A DNA stretch of 64,000 bases, taken from positions 496,001 to 560,000 of the forward strand of contig OZ037839.1 in NCBI GenBank assembly GCA_964035575.1, written 5' to 3'. The translations under genes were made by a program, and so were the position numbers. The DNA comes from Rhynchopus sp. YZ270_cl-10 (lineage: Eukaryota). Positions 21,096 to 54,279 of the stretch are shown piece after piece (position 1 is the stretch's first letter; every line of letters begins with the position of its first letter). Under the pieces are notes generated by a model. The model saw nothing but the letters and a program-made list of their open reading frames with translations. It was not told the origin of the DNA and searched no databases.

Positions 21096-23705
21096 TTAGG
21101 GAGGAAGAGGAAGAAGAAGGGGGGGGGGGAAAGTGAAGGGTTCTGTGAAAAAAGGGTGAGTGAGTTGCGTCTAAACAAAATCTTAACGTTCACTGTCTAT
21201 TAATTCTAAAAAAGTGGGGTAAAAACCCGCCAAGGTAAATTGGGTAAGAGGTTGAAAAGTTGGAACACTTCTTCACCCCCACATCACACAAAAAAAATGG
21301 AAACTTCCCTTTAGAAGGATGCACTACGTTGTACTTCAGATGTCAAAGATTTCCCAGTGTGATGAAGTGTGGGTCCTCTGTGTGAAGTGCTCAGTGTGTG
21401 GTGAGGGGGCTGGGCCCCAGAAGATTGGCGCAGAACAGCACCTCGCCCCAATCAATCCTTACCCCCTCTATCAGACTCCGATCGCAGCGTTCCGGAGACC
21501 GAAGGAGCTCAGTGGTGGCCGAACGATGGAATCGTGGTTGGGTGTCCACGCACACCATGTAGATTGAGTAGATACTGACGACGACAATCTCACGCCTTGA
21601 TTGGACGGCAGAAAGCGGGGGTGGTGGGGTTGGAACCACACAGCAGCATCTGCTATGAGCGCATCTCAACACGGAAACGCATGGTGCCTAATGCTAATTA
21701 GAGTAGACAAATTTTTGTTCCTCCTTGAGAGCACTGATAAGCCAGAAAGAGAGAGGGTGTGAAAATCAATGCCTTTGTTTTACTCTAGTACCGGGGGAGG
21801 GGGTTGAGGAGGAGGAGGAGGAGGAGGAGGAGGGAGGCAAGATACAACAAAATAGCTTTCTTGTTTGTTTTTCACTTATCCTCACCCTGACACGTATGTG
21901 GAGTAGAAAAGACTCTAGGCTGACAGGTTGTTTATAAAAAGGGGTGGGAACACTGCGGTTTGTCAGAGTTGTTGCACCAAACCTGCCAAATATTTTACCC
22001 CAGTTCAAAAGTGTAGCCAAAAATGCAGTTCAATAGGTTCACCGAAGTGTTCTTCACACAAATCACCAAAACCCCCGAACCCCTCTTTTCATCCAGCTTG
22101 TCCTGCTCCTGTTTATGCTGCCCCCAACTCTCCAAATCCTCTTTTTGTTCCTCTTTTTTGTCCTCTTGTGTTTGCATCAATCCCTTCTCGCTCTTGTCCT
22201 GCTTTCAATGCAATACATTGTCTTGCACTTCCAGACACGTCTGTTCGTACTGCCTCAAAAGCTTCTATCCGCACATCTTCGAACTGTTCCGTAAACCTTG
22301 CGTAAATCTCACGCACACGTACATAGAAGGCCTCCTTGTAGGTGCTCATTCTAGGGTCTCCATTCGGGAGAGACAACATCTCGTCAATGTCGATGTTGCC
22401 TGGCAAGACGACTGTTGTGAGTGCGTTGCAGTTCACCAGGAAGCGGCGCTGGATCACTGTGTCCCTGCCAAAACCTGACATGTCCAGCGTGGTCAAGGAT
22501 GTGCAATCTTGCAGGAAACGATTCTCAATCTCCCTCACATTGCTCAGTCCTGATAAGTCTGCTGTTGTCAACGCGGTGCAGTCTTCCATCCACCTTTGCT
22601 CAATGTGTGTGATGCTGCTAAAAGCTGAGAGGTCGATACTTCCCAGCGAGGTGCAACCCCAGAGAAAGCAGTTACCTACCTTCGCAACGCTGTGCAGTGC
22701 TGTCAAGTCAATCGTTTTCAACGAGGTGCAGGACAAACAAAACTCGTTCCCAATTTCCGTCACATTCGTCATCCCTGAAAATCTCATGGTCATCAACGAC
22801 TTGCAGTTGCGGAGAAACTGGGAGTCGATCTTCGTGACACTGCAAAAAGCTGACAAATCAATGGTTCCCAACGAGATGCAGTTCAGGAGGAAGCTGTCCT
22901 CAATGTGCGTGATTCTGCGCCATCCTGAGATGTCAATCCTTTCCAACGACTCGCAGCATGCAAGAAAGTATGCACCAACCTTCATCACACTCGTCATATG
23001 GGATAAGTCAAGCTTTGTGACGCCACTTCCTCGGAGGAACGAGCTCCCTATCACCGTCACACCAGTGAACCCTGACACGTCAAGGCTTGTCAACGATGTG
23101 CAGCAATAGAGACAGTTATGCCCAATGTGCGTAACGTTGCACAATCCCGACAAGTCAACGGTTTCCACCGACGCACACCAGTAGAGGAAGTCGTCCTCAA
23201 TTCGTGTCACACCAGACACAGCAGAGAGATCAAGTCTCGTAAACGATGCATCGCTCAAGAAGTTGTTCGGAATAACAGTCGCAACCTCCGCCTGAAGAAG
23301 CAGAGAAGCCACCTCAGGATCCCTCACAGTCGCCAACCTCTCTTCGGTAAACGTTTTTTAAAAATAGGATGGAGCACCCCGGTCCGAAAAGGAATGCAGC
23401 CACCCCTGGCTTCAGGCTCGCGAACCCAGTATTGCAGTAACACTGGGTCTCACGGGCCAAAAACCGAACAAAGAAAAGGAAAATGTTTGGGTTCAGCGAC
23501 AGCGCCAATGGGCTGACGCGAGGCTGAACCAACTTAAAATAAAATAAAAAATCTTGTATCAACTTGAAAAGGAAAAGCAATGAACAGCAACAGAGCCATT
23601 TGGGCTTACGCGTCGCTATAGTAACTGAAAAACAATGTTTTAAAAACAAGAATGTCGTTGACCAAGATTGAAATACACGAAAAAGGTAAAATACTAAGAA
23701 TTGCC

Positions 23706-26700
23706 TCATATTCCATGGGCATCGTTTCTGATGTTGTAGTTTGTCTGCTGAGTGATCACGCGCCCCCCCTACTAGGGAGGTCTTAGGTTCATGCTTCGGC
23801 TAGCACGTAAAAGCTACCATGTCGCCGAAGTTAGCGGTCCTCGTATTCCATGAGGTCTTTCAGATGTTGTTGTTTGACTGCTGAGTGATCACGCGCCCCC
23901 CCTACTAGGGAGGTCTTAGGTTCATGCTTCGGCTTGCACGAAAAAAGCTACCATGTCGTCGAAGTTAGCGGTCCTCGTATTCCATGAGGTCTTTCAGATG
24001 TTGTTGTTTGACTGCTGAGTGATCACGCGCCCCCCCTACTAGGGAGGTCTTAGGTTCATGCTTCGGCTTGCACGTAAAAGCTACCATGTCGTCGAAGTTA
24101 GCGGTCCTCGTATTCCATGAGGTCTTTCAGATGTTGTTGTTTGACTGATGAGTGATCACGCGCCCCCCCTACTAGGGAGGTCTTAGGTTCGGGCTTCGGC
24201 TTGCACGTAGAAGCTACCATGTCGCCGAAGTTAGCGGTCCTCGTATTCCATGAGGTCTTTCAGATGTTGTTGTTTGACTGCTGAGTGATCACGCGCCCCC
24301 CCTACTAGGGAGGTCTTAGGTTCATGCTTCGGCTTGCACGTAAAGAACTACCATGTCGCCGAAGTTAGCGGTCCTCGTATTCCATGAGGTCTTTCAGATG
24401 TTGTTGTTTGTCTGCTGAGTGATCACGCGCCCCCCCTACTAGGGAGGTCTTAGGTTCATGCTTCGGCTTGCACGTAAAGAACTACCATGTCGCCGAAGTT
24501 AGCGGTCCTCGTATTCCATGAGGTCTTTCAGATGTTGTTGTTTGTCTGCTGAGTGATCACGCGCCCCCCCCTACTAGGGAGGTCTTAGGTTCATGCTTCG
24601 GCTTGCACGTAAAAGCTACCATGTCGCCGAAGTTAGCGGTCCTCGTATTCCATGAGGTCTTTCAGATGTTGTTGTTTGTCTGCTGAGTGATCACGCGCCC
24701 CCCCCTACTAGGGAGGTCTTAGGTTCATGCTTCGGCTAGCACGTAAAAGCTAACATGTCGTCGAAGTTAGCGGTCCTCGTATTCCATGAGGCATTTCTGA
24801 TGTAGTTTGTCTGCTGAGTGATCACGCGCCCCCCCCTACTAGGGAGGTCTTAGGTTCAGGCTTCGGCTTGCACGTAAAAGCTACCATGTCGCCGAAGTTA
24901 GCGGTCCTCGTATTCCATGAGGCATTTCTGATGTAGTTTGTCTGCTGAGTGATCACGCGCCCCCCCCTACTAGGGAGGTCTTAGGTTCAGGCTTCGGCTT
25001 GCACGTAAAAGCTACCATGTCGTCGAAGTTAGCGGTCCTCGTATTCCATGAGGTCTTTCAGATGTTGTTGTTTGTCTGCTGAGTGATCACGCGCCCCCCC
25101 CCTACTAGGGAGGTCTTAGGTTCATGCTTCGGCTAGCACGTAAAAGCTACCATGTCGTCGAAGTTAGCGGTCCTCGTATTCCATGAGGCATTTCTGATGT
25201 AGTTTGTCTGCTGAGTGATCACGCGCCCCCCCTACTAGGGAGGTCTTAGGTTCAGGCTTCGGCTTGCACGTAAAAGCTACCATGTCGCCGAAGTTAGCGG
25301 TCCTCGTATTCCATGAGGCATTTCTGATGTAGTTTGTCTGCTGAGTGATCACGCGCCCCCCCCTACTAGGGAGGTCTTAGGTTCAGGCTTCGGCTTGCAC
25401 GTAAAAGCTACCATGTCGTCGAAGTTAGCGGTCCTCGTATTCCATGAGGTCTTTCAGATGTTGTTGTTTGTCTGCTGAGTGATCACGCGCCCCCCCTACT
25501 AGGGAGGTCTTAGGTTCAGGCTTCGGCTTGCACGTAAAAGCTACCATGTCGTCGAAGTTAGCGGTCCTCGTATTCCATGAGGTCTTTCAGATGTTGTTGT
25601 TTGTCTGCTGAGTGATCACGCGCCCCCCCCCTACTAGGGAGGTCTTAGGTTCATGCTTCGGCTAGCACGTAAAAGCTACCATGTCGTCGAAGTTAGCGGT
25701 CCTCGTATTCCATGAGGCATTTCTGATGTAGTTTGTCTGCTGAGTGATCACGCGCCCCCCCTACTAGGGAGGTCTTAGGTTCAGGCTTCGGCTTGCACGT
25801 AAAAGCTACCATGTCGCCGAAGTTAGCGGTCCTCGTATTCCATGAGGCATTTCTGATGATGTAGTTTGTCTGCTGAGTGATCACGCGCCCCCCCTACTAG
25901 GGAGGTCTTAGGTTCATGCTTCGGCTAGCACGTAAAAGCTACCATGTCGTCGAAGTTAGCGGTCCTCGTATTCCATGAGGTCTTTCAGATGTTGTTGTTT
26001 GACTGCTGAGTGATCACGCGCCCCCCCTACTAGGGAGGTCTTAGGTTCATGCTTCGGCTTGCACGTAAAAGCTACCATGTCGTCGAAGTTAGCGGTCCTC
26101 GTATTCCATGAGGTCTTTCAGATGTTGTTGTTTGACTGCTGAGTGATCACGCGCCCCCCCTACTAGGGAGGTCTTAGGTTCATGCTTCGGCTAGCACGTA
26201 AAAGCTACCATGTCGTCGAAGTTAGCGGTCCTCGTATTCCATGAGGTCTTTCAGATGTTGTTGTTTGACTGCTGAGTGATCACGCGCCCCCCCTACTAGG
26301 GAGGTCTTAGGTTCAGGCTTCGGCTTGCACGTAAAGAACTACCATGTCGCCGAAGTTAGCGGTCCTCGTATTCCATGAGGTCTTTCAGATGTTGTTGTTT
26401 GTCTGCTGAGTGATCACGCGCCCCCCCTACTAGGGAGGTCTTAGGTTCATGCTTCGGCTAGCACGTAAAAGCTACCATGTCGTCGAAGTTAGCGGTCCTC
26501 GTATTCCATGAGGCATTTCTGATGTAGTTTGTCTGCTGAGTGATCACGTGCCCCCCCTACTAGGGAGGTCTTAGGTTCAGGCTTCGGCTTGCACGTAAAA
26601 GCTACCATGTCGCCGAAGTTAGCGGTCCTCGTATTCCATGAGGCATTTCTGATGTAGTTTGTCTGCTGAGTGATCACGCGCCCCCCCTACTAGGGAGGTC

Positions 26701-27725
26701 TTAGGTTCAGGCTTCGGCTAGCACGTAAAAGCTACCATGTCGCCGAAGTTAGCGGTCCTCGTATTCCATGAGGCATTTCTGATGATGTAGTTTGTCTGCT
26801 GAGTGATCACGCGCCCCCCCTACTAGGGAGGTCTTAGGTTCAGGCTTCGGCTTGCACGTAAAGAACTACCATGTCGCCGAAGTTAGCGGTCCTCGTATTC
26901 CATGAGGTCTTTCAGATGTTGTTGTTTGTCTGCTGAGTGATCACGCGCCCCCCCCCTACTAGGGAGGTCTTAGGTTCATGCTTCGGCTAGCACGTAAAAG
27001 CTACCATGTCGCCGAAGTTAGCGGTCCTCGTATTCCATGAGGCATTTCTGATGATGTAGTTTGTCTGCTGAGTGATCACGCGCCCCCCCTACTAGGGAGG
27101 TCTTAGGTTCATGCTTCGGCTTGCACGTAAAGAACTACTATGTCGCCGAAGTTAGCGGTCCTCGTATTCCATGAGGTCTTTCAGATGTTGTTGTTTGTCT
27201 GCTGAGTGATCACGCGCCCCCCCCCTACTAGGGAGGTCTTAGGTTCAGGCTTCGGCTTGCACGTAAAAGCTACCATGTCGCCGAAGTTAGCGGTCCTCGT
27301 ATTCCATGAGGCATTTCTGATGATGTAGTTTGTCTGCTGAGTGATCACGCGCCCCCCCTACTAGGGAGGTCTTAGGTTCATGCTTCGGCTTGCACGTAAA
27401 AGCTACCATGTCGTCGAAGTTAGCGGTCCTCGTATTCCATGAGGTCTTTCAAATGTTGTTGTTTGACTGCTGAGTGATCACGCGCCCCCCCTACTAGGGA
27501 GGTCTTAGGTTCAGGCTTCGGCTTGCACGTAAAAGCTACCATGTCGCCGAAGTTAGCGGTCCTCGTATTCCATGAGGTCTTTCAAATGTTGTTGTTTGAC
27601 TGCTGAGTGATCACGCGCCCCCCCTACTAGGGAGGTCTTGGGTTCAGGCTTCGGCTAGCACGTAAAAAGCTACCATGTCGCGAAGTTAGCGGTCCTCGTA
27701 TTCCATGAGGCACTTCAGATGTTGT
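23706..27725. repeat. Tandem array of 30 units of 130-136 bp (mean ~133)
   Basis: Marker ctactaggg counted 30 times from ~23769 to ~27624; variants (gtctttcagatgttgttg vs gcatttctgatgtag; gccgaag vs gtcgaag) are interspersed. Confidence 0.97.
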
Positions 27726-27744
27726 TCTTCTTTTTCTTCTTGTT

Positions 27745-27810
27745 CCGAGTCTTTGCCGCAGTCCACTGCGTTGCCCGGGGTCACCTCGTGGAGGTGCTCG
27801 GTAAAACCCC
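27745..27810 (-). ncRNA. HDV-like (delta-like) self-cleaving ribozyme, 66 nt
   Basis: GGGGUU-UUA-CCGAGC-ACC-UCCACGA-GGU-GACCCC-GG-GCAA-CGCAG-UGGA-CUGCG-GCAAA-GACUCGG. P1, P2 (one bulged A), P3, L3, P1.1, P4 and a C75-equivalent (plus-strand 27755) can all be assigned by hand. Confidence 0.85.
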
Positions 27811-27895
27811 AGTCGCCAACCTCTCTTCGGAAATGTCTGTCTCACCCAAGGCATGAAGTGTCTCAAGAGATTCGTACTTCATCGACTTCGTCAAC

Positions 27896-28749
27896 GTAGG
27901 GGTCCGTTTTAGGTCTCTGGCAGGCCGGGCCTTCTTTCTGTGACCTTCCCAACCAAAAGACCCCCAAAAAACACAGGTACCTGCTGCGTTTAATGGCACT
28001 TTACCCCAGTCCCTGGAACAGATCGGCAAGCCGACCAGCCCAGGTATGCATGCCAACACTACTGGGGGTGCACTGTTCGATAGCATAAAAGAAAAGTCAA
28101 AAAGTCAAAAAGACAAGAAGGTCAAACAAAATAGGTACTTCGAACAGGGCTGACAGGAGGGGATTCTCACCCGAGGTTCGGTGCCTGTCAGGCTGCGATT
28201 AGTGGTTCTGGGTGATTCCCTTCTTCCTAGCCACCGTTACCGCGGTGCCCGCACCGTAAGAGAGTGGGGACGGTTCACGACCGTTCGTACGCGTCAGCAA
28301 AAGTAGGGGTCGGAGTCCAGGCCCGAACCGGAAACATTAACCTCCGTTTTTCGAAACATTAAAAAGTAAAAATGAAAAAGAAAAATCAACAGCAAGAGCA
28401 GTGTTGCTGTAAAAGAAACAGCAGCACCGTCAGCTAACATGCCACACATTATGGCAGACGGCCACACAAAATTCCCCTGATTTGTACAGAGAAAGTTGTA
28501 ACTTCTTCCTTACAAGTAAGGGAGTGCCGGCAGGGAAGGAGTTACAACAAACAGTGAACAAACTCAAGTACCAGCCTTTCCGCGTAGCACAGACCCTACA
28601 TTTGGTAGTTGGTCTGCCCTACTGCCTCATCTGCACCGTAGCTGGACGCCACGACGACAACTCCTTCATCTATCAACGTACCAAAGCACGTGAAAATAGA
28701 ACAAAAACAAACACATTGGAAAAACAACAGAGCATGTACCTGCAGATCC
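27896..28749. mobile_element. 854-bp non-coding insertion with perfect 20-bp TSD, no TIR or poly(A)
   Basis: acttcatcgacttcgtcaac at 27876-27895 and 28750-28769; empty site in paralogs at ~38440 and ~55683. Confidence 0.85.
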
Positions 28750-29339
28750 ACTTCATCGACTTCGTCAACACGACTGTGTCTCCAGCACTCAGTTCTGTGA
28801 TGTCCTCTCCTTCCTCCTTCCCTCCGAAGCCCATGCGGAAGCTGTCTTCGCACAACCCTGTTGCAGACGCCACCTTCTGCCGCATCGTCTCCGTTGTGTC
28901 GTTCTCACCCACCTCAATCACAAATTTGTTTTCATCATATCCCTGCACACACAGTTCCATTGTTTCGAGTGAAGTGTTGCTCTGTTTTGGGGTGGTGTTG
29001 AGAAGGAGGAGGAGGGAGGCAAGATACAACAAAATGGGGGAATAACATGCTCGAGAGACTCGGGGTTGGCAAAGGAGAACTCTGTGGGATAAAGAGGGGA
29101 GAAGTTCACCAAAAAATATATCCGTTTCGCTTGATCAGATCTCGACCGTTTGTTGCATTGCACGCTTCCACCAAAAATGAAATACCCCCCCTTCTTTATT
29201 TATTCGTTGTTTGTTGTTTGTTGATCGCATCCATCCTCGTCCGTACTTCAGGAAAAGCACACAGCACTTTTGGTGGTATTGAAATGCCCTGTGAAACCGT
29301 CCGCACTTTTTTTTTTTTTTTTTTTTTCAAACCCCAAAA

Positions 29340-30762: not shown

Positions 30763-31479
30763 TCAACTTTTATTTTTCCTTCCTTCAAAACTACACACAC
30801 AACGCTTTTGGTTTTTGGGAGACACACAAGGTGCCAGGTTCTATGATAAGCACGGAACCACCTTGCACCTGTTTGTCATATTGTTTCCCATGCAATACAT
30901 GGATAAACGTTTCGCACTCGAAACTAGGGAAACAATGACAACACAGGTGCAGGGGTTTTTGAATTTGCTGTATTTGCATATTTTTCTGCTTTATGACAAA
31001 GAACAAGAGATACGTAAGAAGAGCAGCACGCCGCTAGGCTGTGTATTGACAGAGCAAATAGAAACATGTATACATGTTCCAGAGAGGGAACCGAGAAGCG
31101 TCACAAGAAAGCGCTACGACGAGCGTAGCAGAAAAAATCGTAAGAAAGTCACAAGAGATGTTAGCAAGCATCCAGCACTCAATCCACTAAAGGACTACAA
31201 GAGCACTATGTAAGAGAAAAAACAACACTAACATTCATGGAGCCAGGGGAGCGAAGGGTGCACACGGCACCGAGAAAGAAACACGAAGGACACCCGAGTA
31301 TCCCGCACTCTGTCCTACGAGAGACCACCAGCTCTCTTCCCCGGACAGGCGAGCCCACAAGTGCTCTGTCCAATCCATGAGATCAACCAGGATCTTAACT
31401 TAAATACAGGTACAGACTCATTTGACTTTCATGCAGCGAAAAAGAATGGCAACAACAGTGCAAACAGCACCGGGAGAGA

Positions 31480-32710
31480 GCATCAAAAAACATCCGAGCA
31501 TCTAATACTCAAGTCAAGCAAGAGACCACAAGAACTCGTCACCTGGCTCAACCAAGAACTTAATCTCCACGCAGGGTTACCAAGTATAAAACTCATCAGT
31601 GTTCGCGGCGCAGAAGAAACAAACAAAATGCAAACAGCACATAGAAAAAACGTAAAACATGACACATATCCGAACATCAAATACTCGATCCACACAAGAG
31701 ATCACAAGAACTCATCACCCATGAAAGACTAGCCCCCTCGGCACTCAGTCTCACACTAGGGCTCAACCAAGAACTTTACTCAAGCAGGACCACCAAGTGT
31801 ACACTCATCCGCATTCATGTAGCAGGAAAGTAAGACAGAGCAAACAGACACAAAAAACATCCGAGCATAAATACAACGGTAATGCATGAGACCACAGAGC
31901 TCTACCCCTGGAGAGACAAGCCCAACTGGCGCACATCTCCTATCACCCGGGATCAACAAGCCTACAAGTGGCATCGAGACCTCTAACCCTGGAAAGATGA
32001 GCCCATACGGCACTCAGTCTCTTTATCACCCGGGATCAACAAGATCTCTACGCAAGCAGAACCAACCCATGCGAGAAGCCACAAGAACTCTAACCCTGGA
32101 GTCACCCGGGATCATCAAGAACTCTGCTCAAGTAGAGTATTAGCTCATCCGCTTTTGTGCAACAGGAAGAAACAAAACAGTGTACAAGTAACATAACAGA
32201 GCACAAACACCACAGAGAGAGCGAAAAATCCCCCGAGCAAGAACTCTAACCCATGAAAGACGAGCCCATCCGGCCCTCAGTCTTATCACCCGGGATCATC
32301 AAGAACTCTACTCAGGCAGGGCCGCCAGTATAAACTCATCAGTGTTCTTGTAACAAGACAGAAAAAACAGTACAAGCAGACACGAAAAACATCCGAGCAT
32401 AAATACAACAGTAATGCATGAGACCACAGAGCTCTACCCCTGGAGAGACAAGCCCATCTGGCGCTCATCTCCTATCACCCGGGATCAACAAGCCTACAAG
32501 TGGCATCGAGACCTCTAACCCTGGAAAGATGAGCCCATACGGCACTCAGTCTCTTTATCACCCGGGATCAACAAGATCTCTACGCAAGCAGAACCAACCC
32601 ATGCGAGAAGCCACAAGAACTCTAACCCTGGAATCACCCGGGATCATCAAGAACTCTGCTCAAGCAGGGTTACCCAGTATTAACTCATCCGTATTCATGT
32701 AACAGAGCAA
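31480..32710. repeat. Degenerate modular repeat region containing a direct duplication with ~532-bp period
   Basis: ~31855-32130 is repeated at ~32387-32662; recurring atcacccgggatca(a/t)caag and gaactctaaccc motifs. Confidence 0.85.
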
Positions 32711-33948
32711 GCTGATCAAGCAGGTTAGCCAATGAGGCACTATTTTTAGAAGAAGAAAGCAGGGAGCGGAGGGAGGGAAAGCTTTTTGATAAAAATTAGC
32801 GAAATACAAAAACCAGCGCGTGTGGAAGAAACAAGGAGAGGAAAATATTTTTTCTGATTCAAAGTGGTGTTTACGTTTTGGGTACGGGGCGGAGAATAAA
32901 GTGAAGTTATTAATGCAGGCACCTCCGACTGACCCACGTACGATGCCAGCCATCCGGATGAAAGCACAAGTACCCTGCGGCCAACAACAGAAGATGTAAA
33001 AAGGAAACCTAATGACTGGCCCGTACCGTAAGAGAACGAGGGCGGTTCACAACCGCTCGACAGCCGGCGGCCCACCTTCCGTTGAAGAGTTGTGAGCTTA
33101 CAGGTACTGCAGTTCGCTGCACCCAACGCTTGATGCACGATAGTCTACACAAGAGAGCAGAAACCCAAAAACACAAAAAGGGGTGGGCGGGGGGGGTCAC
33201 AACATCTCTCTCTTGGCGCCCCATGCTGTACCGACAGTTGGGCCTCACCCTTTCTCTTAGGGATATACATGGACGTCCTTACAGGCAGCACACCGTAACC
33301 CAAAGGCGTGGCAGAGAGACTCCGCAGAGCGACTCTGGCCTGACCGCTGGCCATTTATGCTCCGGGTGCGAGCACCCATCATAGCATAGGGGGGCCAGCC
33401 TGACCCAGCATTTATATACCCTGCCAGGGTGAACTTGCATAAAAGAGGGCAGGAGGGAATAAAATCTGTTCGATAAAAGAAACGCGAGCTTATTGTTTTA
33501 TCTTGTTCACACAAAAACAATGAATGCCTCACACAAAACTGTTTTGGTGGGTGCTGGCTATATAAAACCCTGCACACAACCACGCGAAAAGCCAAAAAAA
33601 GGGGGTTTCCCACATATTTTCCCCTTTACTGTACCCCCACCACCCCAATATACATTACTGACTTAGGCATTTTAAAAATAAAACTCTTCCTTTTTTAGAT
33701 AGATATTCAGTAAAAAGAAACGAAAACAAGGAAAAAAAGAGAGAAAGTTTTTTCGTTGATCGCTCGAATTAGTGTCCCTGAGTGAATGAATCTGGGGAGT
33801 AATTCGGCAAGCACTATCTAAAAACAGAGTTTTATTTTTATATGACGATTCTCGTATATTCAAAAAAAATAGTTTTTCCGACAGAGCTTAGGCCTAGCTA
33901 GGACCCCCCTAGGAATATGCCATGAGTGGGTATTGACACAACCCAAAC

Positions 33949-34401: not shown

Positions 34402-34694
34402 TCACCAGGCTGTGCTAAATACAAATGACATTTCGAAAAAAAAAGAAGAAAAAAACAATATCCCTGAAAAAAGAGGAGTAGGGGAGAAAGGGAGAAAGGG
34501 GTTGAATGGGTTTATATATGGATGCGTGAGTGGGGGGCGTGGGTGGTCTTGTCGTCTGACAGGGTATCGATAGTGAGAAGTAGTGTATATTTCTCTGTCA
34601 ATTTCTGATAAAATAAAATGGATGATTTGTGTGGGATGGAGTGAAAAATACGCACGCAACAAAGTGGAATGGCATGAAGCATGCAAGTGGAATG

Positions 34695-36405
34695 TGTGGG
34701 GTTTATGATCGTACTCCTAGTGGTCAAAAGAAATCAAAATAAAAAACAATAACAACAAAGGGAGAGTGAGGGAGGAATCAGTTATCAATTGGCACCGTTA
34801 GTGCGAAATGTACGTGCGGGGAGGAGCTAGAGTGGGGAAAACGGAAAAAGCGAAAAATGAATTTTTTCTGCTGAAAATGGTGGTATTTTGTTTTTCCCAG
34901 CCCTCCCCGGTTCCTACCCTGCCAAAGCAGGAGGTAAAAAGAAATAGCAGCCCGACGCCCACCTTTTTTGTTTAAAGTACTCTCAAACCCCACATAACGC
35001 ACTTCCAGTGCCTTACAGTGCTGCTATATGAAGTGAAGTGAAGTGAAGTGAAGTGAAGTGAAGTGAAGTGAAGTGAAGTGAAGTGAAGTGAAGTGAAGTG
35101 AAGTGAAGTGAAGTGAAGTGAAGTGAAGTGAAGTGAAGTGAAGTGAAGTGAAGTGAAGTGAAGTGAAGTGAAGTGAAGTGAAGTGAAGTGAAGTGAAGTG
35201 AAGTGAAGTGAAGTGAAGTGAAGTGAAGTGAAGTGAAGTGAAGTGAAGTGAAGTGAAGTGAAGTGAAGTGAAGTGAAGTGAAGTGAAGTGAAGTGAAGTG
35301 AAGTGAAGTGAAGTGAAGTGAAGTGAAGTGAAGTGAAGTGAAGTGAAGTGAAGTGAAGTGTGGGGTTTATGATCGTACTCCTAGTGGTCAAAAGAAATCA
35401 AAATAAAAAACAATAACAACAAAGGGAGAGTGAGGGAGGAATCAGTTATCAATTGGCACCGTTAGTGCGAAATGTACGTGCGGGGAGGAGCTAGAGTGGG
35501 GAAAACGGAAAAAGCGAAAAATGAATTTTTTCTGCTGAAAATGGTGGTATTTTGTTTTTCCCAGCCCTCCCCGGTTCCTACCCTGCCAAAGCAGGAGGTA
35601 AAAAGAAATAGCAGCCCGACGCCCACCTTTTTTGTTTAAAGTACTCTCAAACCCCACATAACGCACTTCCAGTGCCTTACAGTGCTGCTATATGTGGGGT
35701 TTATGATCGTACTCCTAGTGGTCAAAAGAAATCAAAATAAAAAACAATAACAACAAAGGGAGAGTGAGGGAGGAATCAGTTATCAATTGGCACCGTTAGT
35801 GCGAAATGTACGTGCGGGGAGGAGCTAGAGGGCCAGGATTCCCAGCTCCCCCGGCAGCTCCCGCAGGACGCTGGTGGGGACACTGGTGGTCTTTAAGGGA
35901 AGCACACTCTTTACGGCGTCCGGCGCCCTTTCCATTGCTTCCGCCACCTCCTTCGACACCCGCAGAGACCACCAATCGCGTGTCTCGAAGTCAGCCAAAA
36001 AGGCTTCCATCGTGCGGGGAGGAGCTAGAGTGGGGAAAACGGAAAAAGCGAAAAATGAATTTTTTCTGCTGAAAATGGTGGTATTTTGTTTTTCCCAGCC
36101 CTCCCCGGTTCCTACCCTGCCAAAGCAGGAGGTAAAAAGAAATAGCAGCCCGACGCCCACCTTTTTTGTTTAAAGTACTCTCAAACCCCACATAACGCAC
36201 TTCCAGTGCCTTACAGTGCTGCTATATGAAGTGAAGTGAAGTGAAGTGAAGTGAAGTGAAGTGAAGTGAAGTGAAGTGAAGTGAAGTGAAGTGAAGTGAA
36301 GTGAAGTGAAGTGAAGTGAAGTGAAGTGAAGTGAAGTGAAGTGAAGTGAAGTGAAGTGAAGTGAAGTGAAGTGAAGTGAAGTGAAGTGAAGTGAAGTGAA
36401 GTGAA
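34695..36405. repeat. Three tandem copies of a ~335-bp unit with (GAAGT)n microsatellites at 35030-35360 and 36228-36405
   Basis: Essentially identical units start at ~34695, ~35359 and ~35693; the third copy carries a 180-bp insertion. Confidence 0.95.
35831..36010 (-). other. 180-bp insertion with perfect 20-bp TSD; reads as 60 open codons from ATG
   Basis: cgtgcggggaggagctagag at 35811-35830 and 36011-36030; the two sister units show the empty site. Confidence 0.9.
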
Positions 36406-36601
36406 GAGAGTTGACGTGAAGGGCACGCAGGGAGCACAAAAGGAACTGTGCCCTTGATCCGACCCCAAAGAAGTGTCCAATGAAGGTGGGTGGTACAGTG
36501 GGGATGATTTCTTCCTCACTCAATAAAACACTACTCGACCCGCCCAAACACACACAATAATCCTAACACCCCAATTCCCACGCCCGCTTTCTTTATTGCC
36601 C

Positions 36602-38650
36602 CTAAAAACCAATGTCACCTAGTCTGCTGCGTACAACGTTGCTACACTTGTCCATTCCGTCGACTTTCGACAATGGGCAGTAGGAGAGAAAATCATCACC
36701 AATCGTGGTGACTGCTTGCAGGCCGGTGAAGTCCACTTTCGACAACGTTGTGCAGTTGGAGAGAAACGCGTCACCAATCGTGGTGACTGCTCGCAGGCCG
36801 GTGAAGTCCACTTCCGACAACCATGTGCAGTTGTAGAGAAACCAGTCACCAATCGTGGTGACTGATTGCAGGCCGGTGAAGTCCACTTCCGAAAACGATT
36901 TGCAGTGGGAGAGAAAATTGTCACCAATCGTGGTGACTGCTTGCAGGCCGGTGAAGTCCACTTTCGACAACGATGTGCAGGAGGAGAGAAACCTGTCACC
37001 AATCGTGGTGACTGCTTGCAGGCCGGTGAAGTCCACTTTCGACAACGTTGTGCAGTTGGAGAGAAACGCGTCACCAATCGTGGTGACTGCTCGCAGGCCG
37101 GTGAAGTCCACTTCCGACAACCATGTGCAGTTGTAGAGAAACCAGTCACCAATCGTGGTGACTGATTGCAGGCCGGTGAAGTCCACTTCCGAAAACGATT
37201 TGCAGTGGGAGAGAAAATTGTCACCAATCGTGGTGACTGCTTGCAGGCCGGTGAAGTCCACTTTCGACAACGTTGTGCAGTTGGAGAGAAACGCGTCACC
37301 AATCGTGGTGACTGCTCGCAGGCCGGTGAAGTCCACTTCCGACAACCATGTGCAGTTGTAGAGAAACCAGTCACCAATCGTGGTGACTGATTGCAGGCCG
37401 GTGAAGTCCACTTCCGAAAACGATTTGCAGTGGGAGAGAAAATTGTCACCAATCGTGGTGACTGCTTGCAGGCCGGTGAAGTCCACTTTCGACAACGATG
37501 TGCAGGAGGAGAGAAACCTGTCACCAATCGTGGTGACTGCTTGCAGGCCGGTGAAGTCCACTTTCGACAACGTTGTGCAGTTGGAGAGAAACGCGTCACC
37601 AATCGTGGTGACTGCTCGCAGGCCGGTGAAGTCCACTTCCGACAACCATGTGCAGTTGTAGAGAAACCAGTCACCAATCGTGGTGACTGATTGCAGGCCG
37701 GTGAAGTCCACTTCCGAAAACGATTTGCAGTGGGAGAGAAAATTGTCACCAATCGTGGTGACTGCTTGCAGGCCGGTGAAGTCCACTTTCGACAACGTTG
37801 TGCAGTTGGAGAGAAACGCGTCACCAATCGTGGTGACTGCTCGCAGGCCGGTGAAGTCCACTTCCGACAACCATGTGCAGTTGTAGAGAAACCAGTCACC
37901 AATCGTGGTGACTGATTGCAGGCCGGTGAAGTCCACTTCCGAAAACGATTTGCAGTTGTAGAGAAAATCATCACCAATCGTGGTGACTGCTTGCAGGCCG
38001 GTGAGGTCCACTTTCGACAACGATGTGCAGGAGGAGAGAAACCTGTCACCAATCGTGGTGACTGCTTGCAGGCCGGTGAAGTCCACTTCCGACAACGTTG
38101 TGCAGGAGAGAAACCAGTCACCAATCGTGGTGACTGCTTGCAGGCCTGTGAGGTCCACTTTCGACAACGATTTGCAGGAGTAGAGAAAACTGTCACCAAT
38201 CGTGGTGACGCAGGGTAATGCAGGCAGGTGCAGTGTGATGCCACAGTTGTCATCCACATTGGGTACGCAACTGAAACCAATGCGCATTACGGCACTACAT
38301 GAGAAGAAGTCTTCTGGAATCTCAGTCGCAACTTCTGCCTGAAGAAGCAAGCTGGCCACCTTCGGATCCTCCACCTGCTGCAACCTTTCTGCTGTGATGT
38401 TTGTCTCACCCAATGCATGAAGAGCTGATATGGCTTCGTACTTCATCGACTTCGTCAACACGACTGTGTCTCCAGCACTCAGTTCTGTGATGTCCTCTCC
38501 TTCCTCCTTCCCTCCGAAGCCCATGCGGAAGCTGTCTTCGCACAACCCTGTTGCAGACGCCACCTTCTGCCGCATCGTCTCCGTTGTGTCGTTCTCACCC
38601 ACCTCAATCACAAATTTGTTTTCATCATATCCCTGCACACACAGTTCCAT
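36602..38650 (-). CDS. Ubiquitin-like + BspA-type LRR protein copy B with 21 near-perfect 25-aa repeats
   Basis: Start MELCVQGYD at 38650; repeat TTIGDxFLxxCxxLSxVDFTGLxxV; 75-bp DNA periodicity. Confidence 0.9.
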   Translation of the reverse strand: MELCVQGYDENKFVIEVGENDTTETMRQKVASATGLCEDSFRMGFGGKEEGEDITELSAGDTVVLTKSMKYEAISALHALGETNITAERLQQVEDPKVASLLLQAEVATEIPEDFFSCSAVMRIGFSCVPNVDDNCGITLHLPALPCVTTIGDSFLYSCKSLSKVDLTGLQAVTTIGDWFLSCTTLSEVDFTGLQAVTTIGDRFLSSCTSLSKVDLTGLQAVTTIGDDFLYNCKSFSEVDFTGLQSVTTIGDWFLYNCTWLSEVDFTGLRAVTTIGDAFLSNCTTLSKVDFTGLQAVTTIGDNFLSHCKSFSEVDFTGLQSVTTIGDWFLYNCTWLSEVDFTGLRAVTTIGDAFLSNCTTLSKVDFTGLQAVTTIGDRFLSSCTSLSKVDFTGLQAVTTIGDNFLSHCKSFSEVDFTGLQSVTTIGDWFLYNCTWLSEVDFTGLRAVTTIGDAFLSNCTTLSKVDFTGLQAVTTIGDNFLSHCKSFSEVDFTGLQSVTTIGDWFLYNCTWLSEVDFTGLRAVTTIGDAFLSNCTTLSKVDFTGLQAVTTIGDRFLSSCTSLSKVDFTGLQAVTTIGDNFLSHCKSFSEVDFTGLQSVTTIGDWFLYNCTWLSEVDFTGLRAVTTIGDAFLSNCTTLSKVDFTGLQAVTTIGDDFLSYCPLSKVDGMDKCSNVVRSRLGDIGF

Positions 38651-39932
38651 TGTTTCGAGTGAAGTGTTGCTCTGTTTTGGGGTAAGTGTTGAGAAGGAGG
38701 AGGAGGGAGGCAAGATACAAGAAAATAGGGGGATAACATGCTCGAGAGACTCGGGGTTGGCAAAGGAGAACTCTGTGGGATAAAGAGGGGAGAAGTTCAT
38801 CAAAAGGAAAATAGCCGCACAAAAGCTTGAAAAAGGCTGAACACTAACTCTCCCAAAAGTAGTACGTTGCATTCGGTTAATGATCTCTCTTTGTACTGTG
38901 CTTTGAAAAGCGTTGGTCCAGAAAAAGATCCACATTTATTCTGGACAAAATAACTTTTTCGAAGCACGATAATTTGTATCAACCGAAATGGCAGACAGGA
39001 CGTCTAAAAGGCACTCCTGAGATTTACCACACCCTGGCTAGGACGGGCGCTTCACACCAGGAGCCTAACACAACCAAAGGGGCCACCCCATGGGCTAGGA
39101 CCGACTCCGGTCATGCAGCTCACAACTGACAAATAATAAACAACAGCGGAACAGTTGTGAAGGCTAAGGGCTAAGTCCGATGCGGGTAAGACGCAGAAGC
39201 CGACATCAACACCACCATCCACACACGAAAGGTCTGGAACGATCTTGTCTCTAGGCGGAAGTTGTATCGGAGCTCCGCACGAATGTCTCGGAGTCCTAGG
39301 TGCCCCAGTATCACCCCAGGTGCGCAGTGAAGGTGGGGAAAGAGAAGCAGGGGAGGGCGGCAACAGCAGCAGCAACCACAACGTGTGTGCAGTGGTCGAC
39401 GTGCTCAGCGAAAAGATTTTTCAAGAATGAAGAAGCTTTTTGAATCAATAAACAAATAGGGACAACAGTTGTCAACTCCCACCAATTCTTTTTTTTTTTT
39501 TTTTTTACATATCTTCCAGGCTCTCCGCTAGGATTTCCGATTTTGAAAATATTCTGTTGATGGTCCACGTTGGTGGGGTACATGCTTGCGCCGCAGGCGC
39601 ACGGTACGCAACTTTTTTTTTTACCAACGCCCGATTTTGACTTTTTTGGGACGTTTGAGCACTCACCTCTCCATATCTTCTTCTCCTGAGCTTTTTTGAC
39701 AGGTAGAACGGGTCTGAACCACTTAGCAGAACTTTTTTTTTTTTTTCTTTTTTTCCCCATTTTCAAAAAGTTCTGTTGACAATCAACAGAACTTTAGTAC
39801 CTAGCGGAGTGCCTGATATCTTCTCGGCTTTTTTGCTTTTCTAAAAAGCTCTTTTTTATTGTTTTTTTTTGAAAACTTGGTTGTATCAGTGTAGCCACCC
39901 TAGAGTGTGCTCCACTATATATATTTTTTTTT

Positions 39933-49729: not shown

Positions 49730-52175
49730 AGCGGTCGGTTGGTTGTCAAATTTTTTTGTGGCAATTCTTTATTGTTAACCACCTGATAGACCCAACGGTG
49801 TTTGACGTTTTGTTTGGCAGTTTAGTTGCTACCCGGGGGACAAAATCAGGTGAGATGAGGCTAACTTATGAGTCGTCCGGTGTTTCGTCCACTACGGCCT
49901 CGTCTGCAGCCTGGTTGTGGTTCTGCTGCCAAGTGTGCTGCGCAAGAAGTGCTGTAGGTATCACAAACCAGACCCTCGCGAGAAGCTCCAAGGCGTGCAT
50001 GAAGGCATCAAGTGCTTTATCCTTTTTATCTCTGAACGGTTAAATGGAATGTGTGAAAGATAGGGAAGAAAAAGTGAAATAATTGGGAGAGCGTTGGAAA
50101 AAGGGAGGAAAAAGGGAGGAAAAAAAGAGGGAAAAAAAGACGTCATTTTTTTTGTTAAATGTGCAACAACTCTTTTAAAAGTGTTGTCTTCTTTGCATCG
50201 TTTGGTTTATTTTATTATTGTAATGAAATTGTAAGTTATCAACACAACCACCCCCTTCCAAGAAGCAATGTTTTATCTCGCGTCTTTCATCGGGGGGGAG
50301 GGAAAGTAATAGTTAATGCAGGCAACCTCTGACTGACCATACGATGCCTGTCATGCCAGATAAAAGCACCAAAAAGAAAAAAGAGAAGTTAAGAGATCAA
50401 TATGCCTTTGCGTGCATCATATCTCAACAAAAAAAAATGCAAAATATAAACACAAGGAGAACAGGGTGGGGTTTCCAGAAAGAAGCAAATACAGGAGGTG
50501 TTTAGCGAATTTTTGGAACTGTCCTGGAAAATTTTTTTGCCTCGCGCGGCAATTTGTTTCTCCCCCCCTGACGAAAAAAAAAGTACACAAAAAAATGCGT
50601 TTCTACGTACCCACCTTTAGTGGGCCAATAATGTCACGTCGTTCACCCAACGCTCCGCAACACCACCACCCGATAGTGTGCGTGGAAGCGTTAACGCATC
50701 AAACAACTACAAGGGGTGAGGGAACCACTAGCGATATTTTTTGTTTGACAATGGACGGGTAGATGACCCGTGATGCCAATGGTGACGGTACACAGGGCAA
50801 GCCTGGCATCCACAAAAGAAAGAAAAGTTTATAAGATGATCCTAAGCCTCTCTGTGCTTAGTCACCTTAAAATAAAAATGTCGTTTTAAAAAAGAAAGGT
50901 GGTCAAAGAAAGATGATCTGTGCCTCACGGGTACGCATCTAGGAAGTCTAGGAAGCAAGAGAAGTGGGAGAGGGAGTCTTACTTAAAGAAAAGTTGCAAG
51001 ATGGCTACACCTCACCGTGCACACACATCCGTAATGAAGAAAGAAACGGCATATTTGAAAGGGGATAAGGAGATTGTTTATTTTTTTTTTTGTTTTGCTG
51101 CAGTTTTTGTTTGCTAAAACTACCTTCAAAAAAAGGGGGGGGAACAGTGTTAAAGGGATTGCTGAATCGCTGATATAAGAAAGAGTGGAAGAGAGGTTTT
51201 TGAAAGTGCAAAAATGCGCAGCGTATCGATTCTCCAACGTTGCAGCCTCCTCGAGGAGAAGCTCAACAACGCTGGCACTGAAGAGAGGGAGAGATCGAAA
51301 AGGGGGTGTTATGAATTATTACAATGTGACTCTGGGTCACATCAAAGAAAAAAAAATAGGTAGGCGTGCTTTTAGGAGACACCCCAACCTTTACGTTACC
51401 ATACCAAACAAATCAAAATAAAAAAGTAATTACTATCAAAGTATCTCAACATATGCATTCAATAAATTGATAGCATAGGAAGAAGGAATCAAAAAATGTT
51501 CCCAACTTTTTTATCGAAAAAAAAATGGGGTGTCCTGTGTGTATGGGGAGGCTCGATATTCATTTCCCTCCCCACTCATCATCGTCGGAGCAGTGCGGAA
51601 GGAACACAGAATACACAGACGAAAACCCGTCGCTCGAGTAACTTGGCTCCACCAGGGCAATCAATCACGCTTAGGCTTTGTCCAGCCTCCGAAATGTCAA
51701 AACAAAAATAAGGGATAAACTGACTGTACGATGCCAGCCATCCGGATGAAATCACAAAAAAAAAACCCTTGAAAGATGAAGGCGCCTTGCGTGATAAAAC
51801 AAAGATCAAAAACAAAAAAAAAATTCTCCCCCCCTTCGGGGGGTTTTCTTATGCTTTTATTATTGTTATCATGTTCATGTTATTTTTGCTTTTGTTCATT
51901 TTTTTTTTTTTTTGAAAAAGTTTGTTCTTGTTTGTTTTTTTGTTGTTTTTTCCCTCCCGCTTTTTTTGAGTTTTTTTTTTCTAAGTTTGTCAACAGCAGA
52001 AAAAGGGTGCGTTACTGTTGAGATTACGACTCAACTACTCACATCCACGATCTCAAACCAAGAAAGTGTTCTTGTTTTCCTTTTTTATTTGCACTCCCCC
52101 TCCTACACACGAATGCCAGCCCTCCACCGGATAGCTATTTTAACAATAATTGTCAGCTTCATTCTCCACATGGCT

Positions 52176-53841: not shown

Positions 53842-54279
53842 CTTAAGGGGTGGGCTGGGTGGCGTTCTGTAGGGGAGAGGTGGTGAAGGTTGTGCCATGT
53901 GCTGTTCCTGCAATGAAAAGGATGCAGGCACCTCCGACTGACCCACTGTACGATGCCAGCCATCCGGATGCAAGCACAACCCGGCAAGAAGGTGTAAAAA
54001 GAGGCGTGCTAACCTAAGCTAGTGTAGCTCCAATCGCAAATGAAATAGGAGGATTAATGCAGGTTTGCAGTATGTAGTTCAAATGTAGACCAAAAGCTGC
54101 TGAACGTGCCACATTCAGGAACAAAATAAATCGATCAAAAAGGCTGAACAATATTTATTTGTTAGTTTTGCAGCCTTCCTACAACAAAAAAAAGAACAAT
54201 AAAAATCCCGTTTGTCTATTGTTTAGTTGGTACGTACCCACGTCATACGCGTTGCTTCGATTACCCTACCCCCAAGAGC

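What the first reader, a model, noticed from the sequence alone, without database searches (positions are those of the whole stretch)
23348..27810. Ribozyme-capped, tandem-array non-coding retroposon
Seen (minus strand): HDV-like ribozyme at the exact 5' boundary, an A-rich linker, 30 x ~133-bp units, ~360 bp with several hairpins, no ORF, no poly(A), 20-21-bp TSD, inserted sense into an LRR gene. Known: R2 and the trypanosomatid L1Tc/ingi/SIDER elements begin with HDV-like ribozymes; SLACS/CZAR carry ~185-bp 5' tandem repeats and long TSDs. I do not recognise this combination as a described family. Inference: a non-autonomous retroelement, or the 5' and 3' ends of an autonomous one, able to seed satellite arrays and cut co-oriented polycistronic transcripts.
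Basis: partly seen in the sequence, partly recalled or inferred. Interest (0 to 1): 0.85.

Follow-up and report, generated by a model that had tools for sequence, protein, structure and literature searches.

The report
Ribozyme-capped repeat-array retroelement in diplonemid
A 4.5-kb non-coding insertion in a gene of what is likely a diplonemid (a marine flagellate) starts with a predicted self-cutting RNA, carries 30 tandem repeats and ends in a predicted folded tail that is also joined to other genomic sites, so it is likely a parasitic jumping element copied by the enzyme of a larger retrotransposon that I could not identify.

Summary
The anatomy is confirmed: a 4,463-bp insertion (27810-23348, minus strand) with an exact 20-21-bp target duplication splits an LRR gene whose paralog in the window is uninterrupted. 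It begins exactly at an HDV-type double pseudoknot (Rfam E 2.4e-5, below gathering score), then has 30 units of 130-135 bp and a strongly folding 372-nt tail, with no ORF or poly(A). The host is likely a diplonemid. Public-run contigs show a family: the same 3' end joins unrelated flanks in 4 of 4 runs laid, and contigs bridge tail and array in 4 of 4. A longer, diverged relative shares the tail. Not shown: other 5' junctions, ribozyme-array linkage elsewhere, cleavage, expression, and the partner. Best reading (0.7): a non-autonomous non-LTR retroposon working like R2 SIDEs or RIME/NARTc, released from polycistronic RNA by its ribozyme and copied in trans. A SLACS/CRE-type partner is my lead guess (about 0.4). 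It fails ingi-clade tests (no CGTG, longer duplication, no poly(A)). The unit matches no Rfam family and only loosely resembles a twister-sister core. New variant of a known kind; interest 0.5.

The parts
27811..27830 (-). Upstream copy of the target-site duplication (20 bp; 21 if G27810 is counted)
   Evidence: exact match to 23347-23327
27745..27810 (-). HDV-like ribozyme fold; predicted cleavage 5' of G27810; catalytic-position C at 27755
   Evidence: Rfam RF02682 37.7 bits, E 2.4e-5, below gathering 44; descriptor 1 hit vs 1 in 40 shuffles; pair table
27710..27744 (-). A-rich linker; its last ~16 nt resemble the end of a repeat unit
23720..27709 (-). Tandem array, 30 units of 130-135 bp, a mosaic of a few two-state variants, G7-G9 run in each
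   Evidence: tandem joint in 3 of 4 runs
23348..23719 (-). 3' tail: degenerate unit start, then hairpins 23619-23584 and 23530-23490 (74% alike over 47 nt), 23465-23408 and 23406-23367
   Evidence: z -5.2; coordinates; internal repeat
23348..23406 (-). Terminal hairpin module and fixed 3' end, also present without the rest of the tail in other contigs
   Evidence: loose ends at 23348 and at 23405/23408, higher depth
23327..23347 (-). Downstream copy of the target-site duplication
22113..23347 (-). 3' part of the interrupted BspA-type LRR gene, frame still open
27831..27895 (-). Middle piece of the LRR gene between the two insertions
   Evidence: 94% to paralog over 86 nt
27896..28749 (.). Second, unrelated 854-bp non-coding insertion with an exact 20-bp duplication (28769-28750 = 27895-27876)
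   Evidence: covered in 4 of 4 runs
28750..28960 (-). 5' part of the LRR gene (region matching the ubiquitin-like start of the paralog)
   Evidence: 96-97% to both paralogs; Pfam on paralog

Best explanation
This ORF-less insertion with a 20-21-bp target duplication is likely a non-autonomous non-LTR retroposon: it would be transcribed as part of the co-oriented gene cluster, its predicted HDV-type ribozyme would cut it free exactly at its first base, and the reverse transcriptase-endonuclease of a separate, unidentified retrotransposon would bind the hairpin tail and copy it into new sites by target-primed reverse transcription. Shown: boundaries, duplication, ribozyme fold at base 1, array, tail, multiple 3' flanks, tail-array linkage in other runs. 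Inferred: transcription, cleavage, copying in trans. The array is likely passenger sequence, an expanded 5'/internal tandem repeat of the parent element lying between the two ends that matter, and likely long in other copies too. For the partner I favour a dispersed SLACS/CRE-type element (about 0.4) over an ingi-type (about 0.2) or other LINE (about 0.4); untested.
For: Exact TSD and empty paralog. Complete double pseudoknot starting at the boundary base; upstream base is U. Loose ends exactly at 23348 in X1 (7 contigs, agreement 0.51), X3 (6, 0.56), X4 (5, 0.55; 3 more at 23354), and at 23345/23355 in X6 (1 and 2 contigs): one fixed 3' end, several flanks, 4 runs from 3 studies. Contigs with 0 differences bridge tail and last unit in 4 of 4 runs (records 8, 16, 24, 30). 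Other contigs stop matching at 23405/23408, the base of the last hairpin, with mixed neighbours, and the last 60 nt are several-fold deeper than the rest: expected of 5'-truncated copies or of a shared 3' module. A diverged relative (X3 record 10, 3,459 nt; X6 record 31, 1,696 nt) shares tail patches and runs on unlike beyond 23684; 2 of its 4 listed changes keep stem pairs (one-sided changes) and 2 fall in the loop. Unit depth is about 17-68 times that of the tail-bridging contig in the 3 runs laid on both (X1, X4, X6), a rough hint only. Host: GMP reductase 76% to Diplonema papillatum, the best named hit; that species has 745 SLACS-like RT genes (supplement of PMC10161547). CRE-clade elements carry internal or 5' tandem repeats, and FoTeR 3' UTRs are 336-409 bp. 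SIDEs show that ribozyme plus 3' end suffice.
Against: No second 5' junction was seen: no loose end at 27810 among the 24 rows printed of 184, and no printed piece (32 of 1,782) links ribozyme to array. The ribozyme bin is covered in 2 of 4 runs only, and its depth relative to the tail differs widely between X1 and X4. The ribozyme scores under Rfam's gathering cut-off, P1 is 6 bp, and an A at the end of L3 lets P3 zip into a 6-bp hairpin that appears in every MFE fold, which could lower activity. No RT was found or linked; the long relative has about single-locus depth and may be a truncated old copy running into unique flank. Some of the other 3' flanks may belong to copies of the terminal 60 nt only (X4 record 19). 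Depth is not copy number, and the best runs may be the window's own source.
Confidence: 0.7

Rival explanations
1. Chimera or dead ribozyme: the mobile unit is array plus tail, and the ribozyme here is an inactive relic or was joined once by a template jump from another element.
For: Ribozyme not covered in X6 and X8 although the unit is; no 5' junction diversity or ribozyme-array contig among printed rows. Competing 6-bp hairpin in L3/P3. Template jumps are documented for R2 (PMC3414825).
Against: All five helices and the catalytic-position C are intact and start at the boundary base; X6 and X8 have low depth, so a hole proves nothing; hybrid R2/R1 SIDEs carry a U-to-A change in the catalytic region and still cleave (whether it is the same position could not be seen without the figure).
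Confidence: 0.12
2. A local deletion derivative: an autonomous LINE with a 5' tandem repeat inserted here and later lost its ORF; the ORF-less form is not itself mobile.
For: CRE-clade elements have 5' VNTR + ORF + ~350-bp 3' UTR; a longer relative shares the tail.
Against: The array-to-tail junction is bridged in 4 of 4 runs by contigs deeper than most single-junction contigs of the same run (X3 1,595 vs 81-348; X4 897 vs 58-288; X1 2,506 vs 9-1,195; X6 9.3 vs 3-4), which suggests that the ORF-less junction is itself repeated (depth is a rough guide).
Confidence: 0.1
3. Retrozyme-like multimer: each 133-nt unit is a variant twister-sister-like self-cleaving RNA and the array is a reverse-transcribed multimer.
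For: Each unit holds the 5-nt short strand of the twister-sister catalytic loop with A or U at the tolerated position (20 A, 10 U), inside a hairpin facing a CA step; a relaxed, after-the-fact descriptor fits 30 of 30 units and 50 of 20,000 shuffles; the same letters match the 9-nt SL4 loop in 20 of 30 units (either letter: 253 of 40,000 shuffles). Motifs from PMC5660989 and PMC11620745.
Against: The strict descriptor fits 0 of 30 units; the conserved A8-U61 pair is missing; a full twister-sister fold is 8.5-17 kcal/mol worse than the MFE in 3 of 3 units tried; Rfam finds nothing at E<=10 on two units; unit z-scores are -0.58 to +0.61; no correction for having tried several ribozyme classes; self-cutting units would destroy the full-length RNA.
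Confidence: 0.05
4. A DNA-mediated element (Helitron/MITE-like with a tandem core) or a tolerated spliceosomal intron.
For: Tandem core plus 3' hairpins recalls Helitron-derived repeats (recalled). The TSD holds AG|GT, so 27820-23338 would be a GT-AG intron whose removal restores the frame.
Against: 20-21-bp TSD, no terminal inverted repeats seen at the ends, apparent 5' truncations. 9% of 21-mers in these LRR genes hold AGGT (263 of 2,820), the second insertion has no such window and would still break the gene.
Confidence: 0.03

Closest known systems
R2 SIDEs and R2/R1 hybrid SIDEs of Drosophila (PMC3414825; abstract, one Results section and Discussion read)
   Same: Non-autonomous; 5' HDV-like ribozyme at the boundary; structured 3' end; dependent on co-transcription and on a partner's TPRT machinery.
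   Different: Not in rDNA; dispersed 3' flanks; 4-kb internal tandem array; 20-21-bp TSD against 14 bp for hybrid SIDEs; euglenozoan host; partner unknown.
Trypanosomatid ingi clade: L1Tc/NARTc, ingi/RIME, SIDER (PMC4035085, PMC4748587, PMC5814959, PMC6765202; passages)
   Same: Euglenozoan, polycistronic setting, HDV-like ribozyme cutting before base +1, non-coding derivatives, sense bias; the CACC...CG spacing of the P3/L3 core matches the Pr77 description, though the Rfam bacterial consensus has it too.
   Different: No CGTG promoter core (CGAG at +23 to +26); TSD 20-21 rather than usually 12 bp; no poly(A); several-kb array.
CRE clade: SLACS, CZAR, CRE1/2, MoTeR, FoTeR (PMC12278014, PMC12857005; passages)
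   Same: Internal or 5' tandem repeats; 3' UTR of similar length in FoTeR; variable TSD; strongly expanded in D. papillatum (745 SLACS-like RT genes).
   Different: No RT/RLE ORF; not in spliced-leader genes or telomeres; no poly(A); no paper in my searches (listings only) reports an HDV-like ribozyme on a CRE element.
Non-LTR retrozymes (PMC7761336; passages)
   Same: Non-coding tandem units near 150 nt, thought to be moved in trans.
   Different: There each unit holds a hammerhead; here there is one 5' HDV-like ribozyme, a unique 3' tail and no hammerhead core in the units.

Membership tests
HDV-like ribozyme | Nested double pseudoknot P1, P1.1, P2, P3, P4 | tested here: met
   pair table; P1 is 6 bp rather than about 7
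HDV-like ribozyme | Catalytic C in J4/2 and U..G in L3 | tested here: met
   C56, U19, G24 in ribozyme numbering; assignment by analogy
HDV-like ribozyme | Rfam gathering score | tested here: not met
   37.7 vs 44 bits
HDV-like ribozyme | Self-cleavage 5' of G1 | not testable with these tools
   needs an in vitro assay; competing hairpin
Non-autonomous non-LTR retroposon (SIDE/RIME type) | Target-site duplication, no coding capacity | tested here: met
Non-autonomous non-LTR retroposon (SIDE/RIME type) | Fixed 3' end at several unrelated sites | tested here: met
   4 of 4 runs
Non-autonomous non-LTR retroposon (SIDE/RIME type) | Same 5' ribozyme at several sites | tested here: inconclusive
   covered in 2 of 4 runs, junction rows not printed
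Non-autonomous non-LTR retroposon (SIDE/RIME type) | Ends shared with an autonomous RT-encoding partner | tested here: inconclusive
   longer relative shares tail, only 30 upstream letters visible; no genome held
ingi/L1Tc clade (Pr77 hallmark) | CGTG core at +25 to +28 | tested here: not met
   no CGTG in the first 101 nt (definition)
ingi/L1Tc clade (Pr77 hallmark) | TSD usually 12 bp and poly(A) tail | tested here: not met
   20-21 bp, no poly(A) (definitions)
ingi/L1Tc clade (Pr77 hallmark) | Sequence homology to Pr77 over 77 nt | not tested
   no Pr77 sequence was available from a tool
CRE clade (SLACS/CZAR) | RT plus restriction-like endonuclease ORF | tested here: not met
   no ORF in the element; partner unseen
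CRE clade (SLACS/CZAR) | Insertion in spliced-leader RNA genes | tested here: not met
   inserted in an LRR gene; mixed flanks elsewhere
CRE clade (SLACS/CZAR) | Internal or 5' tandem repeat region | tested here: met
   feature; not diagnostic alone
Non-LTR retrozyme | A hammerhead (or other ribozyme) in every unit | tested here: not met
   no Rfam hit at E<=10; no hammerhead core followed by GAAA on either strand
Twister-sister / TS-like ribozyme (repeat unit) | Both conserved L1 strands between two stems | tested here: not met
   strict 0 of 30, relaxed 30 of 30
Any Repbase/Dfam family | Sequence match to a catalogued consensus | not testable with these tools
   no such library on hand

The most novel reading that the evidence does not exclude
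A two-ribozyme retroposon: an HDV-type ribozyme caps an array whose 133-nt units are each a variant twister-sister-like self-cleaving RNA, moved by a dispersed SLACS/CRE-type retrotransposon, a clade for which I found no ribozyme in print. The milder half alone (an HDV-capped, array-carrying parasite of a CRE-type element) has a probability near 0.3 and would merit about 0.65.
Probability: 0.04. Interest if true: 0.85.

Novelty: new variant of a known kind. Interest (0 to 1): 0.5.

Why it matters
It would extend ribozyme-processed retroposons from trypanosomatids to their free-living sister group, in a form that is not Pr77/ingi-like; I found no such report (listings). It offers a mechanism for dispersed repeats with internal tandem arrays, which make up part of the repeat-rich D. 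papillatum genome and were left unclassified there (PMC10161547). If the partner is CRE-type it answers how those elements form their 5' end. An active ribozyme inside a co-oriented cluster would also cut the polycistronic RNA. The mechanism itself is established for R2 SIDEs and RIME/NARTc, so the surprise is moderate.

Tried and rejected
No whole genome is held, so the genome-wide BLAST could not be run. No RNA holder listed among 13 runs. Exact-pattern scans found nothing: viral contigs, 2 scans, metagenome contigs, 2 scans. The 2 prokaryotic hits for a 19-nt tail pattern match over 19-23 nt only and are treated as chance. No tRNA. Rfam on the tail gives only generic hairpin matches, best E 0.35; on the second insertion one match at E 4.3. 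No second copy of head, unit or tail elsewhere in the window. Lack of ribozyme cover in X6 and X8 is not taken as absence. The adenylate-cyclase search gave 120 listed unnamed relatives and no taxon. Earlier scan notes held nothing for this genome or sequence. No consistent covariation among the 27 variable columns of the array was apparent, and the two main variable sites of the unit hairpin occur in all four combinations. Promoter-monomer role for the units: plausible by analogy with L1 (recalled) but untested. Literature searches: (0 papers).
Full report
Observation. The window holds a 4,463-bp insertion on the minus strand, 27810 to 23348. The 21 bases 27830-27810 recur exactly at 23347-23327; the last of them is also the first G of the ribozyme, so the duplication is 20 or 21 bp. 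The interrupted gene is a BspA-type LRR gene, and a paralog at 54277-55640 runs unbroken across the site. Inside are a 66-nt ribozyme-like fold, a 35-nt A-rich linker, 30 units of 130-135 bp (26 distinct, 94% mean identity) and a 372-nt tail that folds far better than shuffles (z -5.2, 0 of 100). The longest stop-free stretch is 150 codons and there is no poly(A).

Ribozyme. Rfam gives no hit at gathering scores but matches RF02682 at 27743-27810 with 37.7 bits, E 2.4e-5 on a 701-nt search and 0.0022 on the window. A descriptor written from general knowledge of the HDV fold finds one site in the 64 kb, starting at 27810, and one locus in 40 shuffled windows. P1 (6 bp), P2 (5), P3 (3), P1.1 (2) and P4 (5) all pair and a C sits at the catalytic position. 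Against activity: an A closes L3, so P3 can zip into a 6-bp hairpin, which is what nested folding predicts. Cleavage is untested.

Host. The GMP reductase of the window is 76% identical to that of Diplonema papillatum, the best hit with a species name, and 54-57% to most named trypanosomatid enzymes. The host is likely a diplonemid other than that species. All 15 ORFs of 300 codons or more lie on the minus strand, in keeping with co-transcribed clusters described for D. papillatum (PMC10161547, passages). The element is in sense orientation.

Is it a family? I laid 4 runs on the 5' region (X1, X4, X6, X8) and 4 on the 3' region (X1, X3, X4, X6), five of the ten holders in all. At the 3' end, contigs leave the reference exactly at 23348 in X1 (7 contigs), X3 (6) and X4 (5, plus 3 at 23354) with consensus agreement of only 0.51-0.58, and at 23345 and 23355 in X6: one end, several flanks. 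Contigs without differences bridge tail and last unit in 4 of 4 runs, at depths above most single-junction contigs. The 133-bp tandem joint appears in 3 of 4 runs. Unit depth is 17-68 times the tail-bridging contig in the 3 runs laid on both, a rough hint that long arrays are typical. The last hairpin (23406-23348) is several-fold deeper than the rest and also occurs with mixed neighbours at 23405/23408, as expected if reverse transcription often stops at the next long stem, or if several families share that module. A diverged relative on contigs of 3,459 nt (X3) and 1,696 nt (X6) shares tail patches and continues unlike beyond 23684; two of four listed changes keep stem pairs by one-sided change and two lie in the loop. 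Only 30 letters of its upstream part are shown, so it may be the partner or an old truncated copy. At the 5' end the evidence is weak: the ribozyme bin is covered in X1 and X4 only, and none of the printed rows (24 of 184 loose ends, 32 of 1,782 pieces) shows another 5' flank or a ribozyme-array contig. Depth is not copy number, and some runs may be the source of the window.

The repeat unit. It matches no Rfam family at E<=10, no tRNA, no hammerhead core, and folds no better than shuffles. I noticed letters resembling the twister-sister catalytic loop (PMC5660989 and PMC11620745, passages). A strict descriptor fits 0 of 30 units, a relaxed one made after the fact fits 30 of 30 and 50 of 20,000 shuffles; the full fold costs 8.5-17 kcal/mol in 3 of 3 units. 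I keep this as a low-odds lead. An unchecked note from another genome (e1-10133843) reports such a ribozyme in non-coding repeats; it is not support.

Mechanism. The most likely cycle is read-through transcription, ribozyme cleavage at base 1, binding of the hairpin tail by a partner's reverse transcriptase-endonuclease, and target-primed insertion with a staggered cut about 20 bp apart. Only the anatomy and the dispersal of the 3' end are shown. This is the logic of R2 SIDEs (PMC3414825: abstract, R2/R1 SIDE section and Discussion) and of NARTc/RIME/SIDER (PMC4035085, PMC5814959, PMC6765202, passages). It is not an ingi-clade member on the tests run: no CGTG core (PMC4748587, passages), TSD longer than the usual 12 bp, no poly(A). 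It is not a CRE member either (no ORF, not in spliced-leader genes), but CRE-clade elements carry internal or 5' tandem repeats and FoTeR 3' UTRs are 336-409 bp (PMC12278014, PMC12857005, passages), and D. papillatum has 745 SLACS-like RT genes (supplement table). That makes a dispersed CRE-type element my lead candidate, untested. Retrozymes differ in having a ribozyme per unit (PMC7761336, passages). R2 ribozyme features were checked in PMC3774820 (passages) and diplonemid introns in PMC12621601 (passages).

Novelty. Searches for diplonemid plus retrotransposon plus ribozyme (1 unrelated paper), Diplonema plus ribozyme (6 papers, judged mostly from listings), HDV plus CRE clade or SLACS (2 papers each) and ribozyme plus tandem array plus non-autonomous showed no description of this combination. 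The library lacks most subscription papers, figures were not visible, 'ribozyme' had no hit in the 7 supplement files held for PMC10161547, and Repbase and Dfam could not be searched. Verdict: a real, probably recent retroposon insertion of a family that appears undescribed, working by a known principle; new variant of a known kind, interest 0.5.

Noticed in passing
window 27896-28749: A second, unrelated 854-bp non-coding insertion with an exact 20-bp TSD, 66 bp from the first in the same LRR gene; covered in 4 of 4 runs, deepest near 28615-28750; no Rfam match of note. The similar TSD length hints at the same or similar machinery.
   Followed up: partly
window 23296-23379 (contigs X3 record 9, X4 records 17 and 18): The same 3' end is joined to diverged LRR-like flanks at the same place, with 6-7 differences: either repeated targeting of this gene family or duplication of an inserted gene.
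   Followed up: no
window 27820-23338: The TSD contains AG|GT, so the insertion could in principle be spliced as a frame-restoring GT-AG intron; 9% of 21-mers in these genes have this by chance.
   Followed up: partly
window 33019-33059 and 28247-28287: A 41-nt patch (83%) is shared between the second insertion and the non-coding region near 33 kb; a 58-nt piece at 32913-32969 recurs at 53922-53979 and partly at 51723-51757.
   Followed up: no
window 34692-36421: A ~340-bp unit in about three near-identical copies interleaved with long (TGAAG)n tracts of 66 and 39 copies.
   Followed up: no
window 31450-32705: Nested degenerate direct repeats, about 470 bp at 89% with shorter subunits, non-coding as far as seen.
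   Followed up: no
window 22113-28960, 36602-38830, 54280-55896: Three paralogs with a shared N-terminal part (weak ubiquitin-family match in one) followed by LRRs; one has a 75-bp repeat array of 20.5 copies; the family is very deep in the runs.
   Followed up: partly
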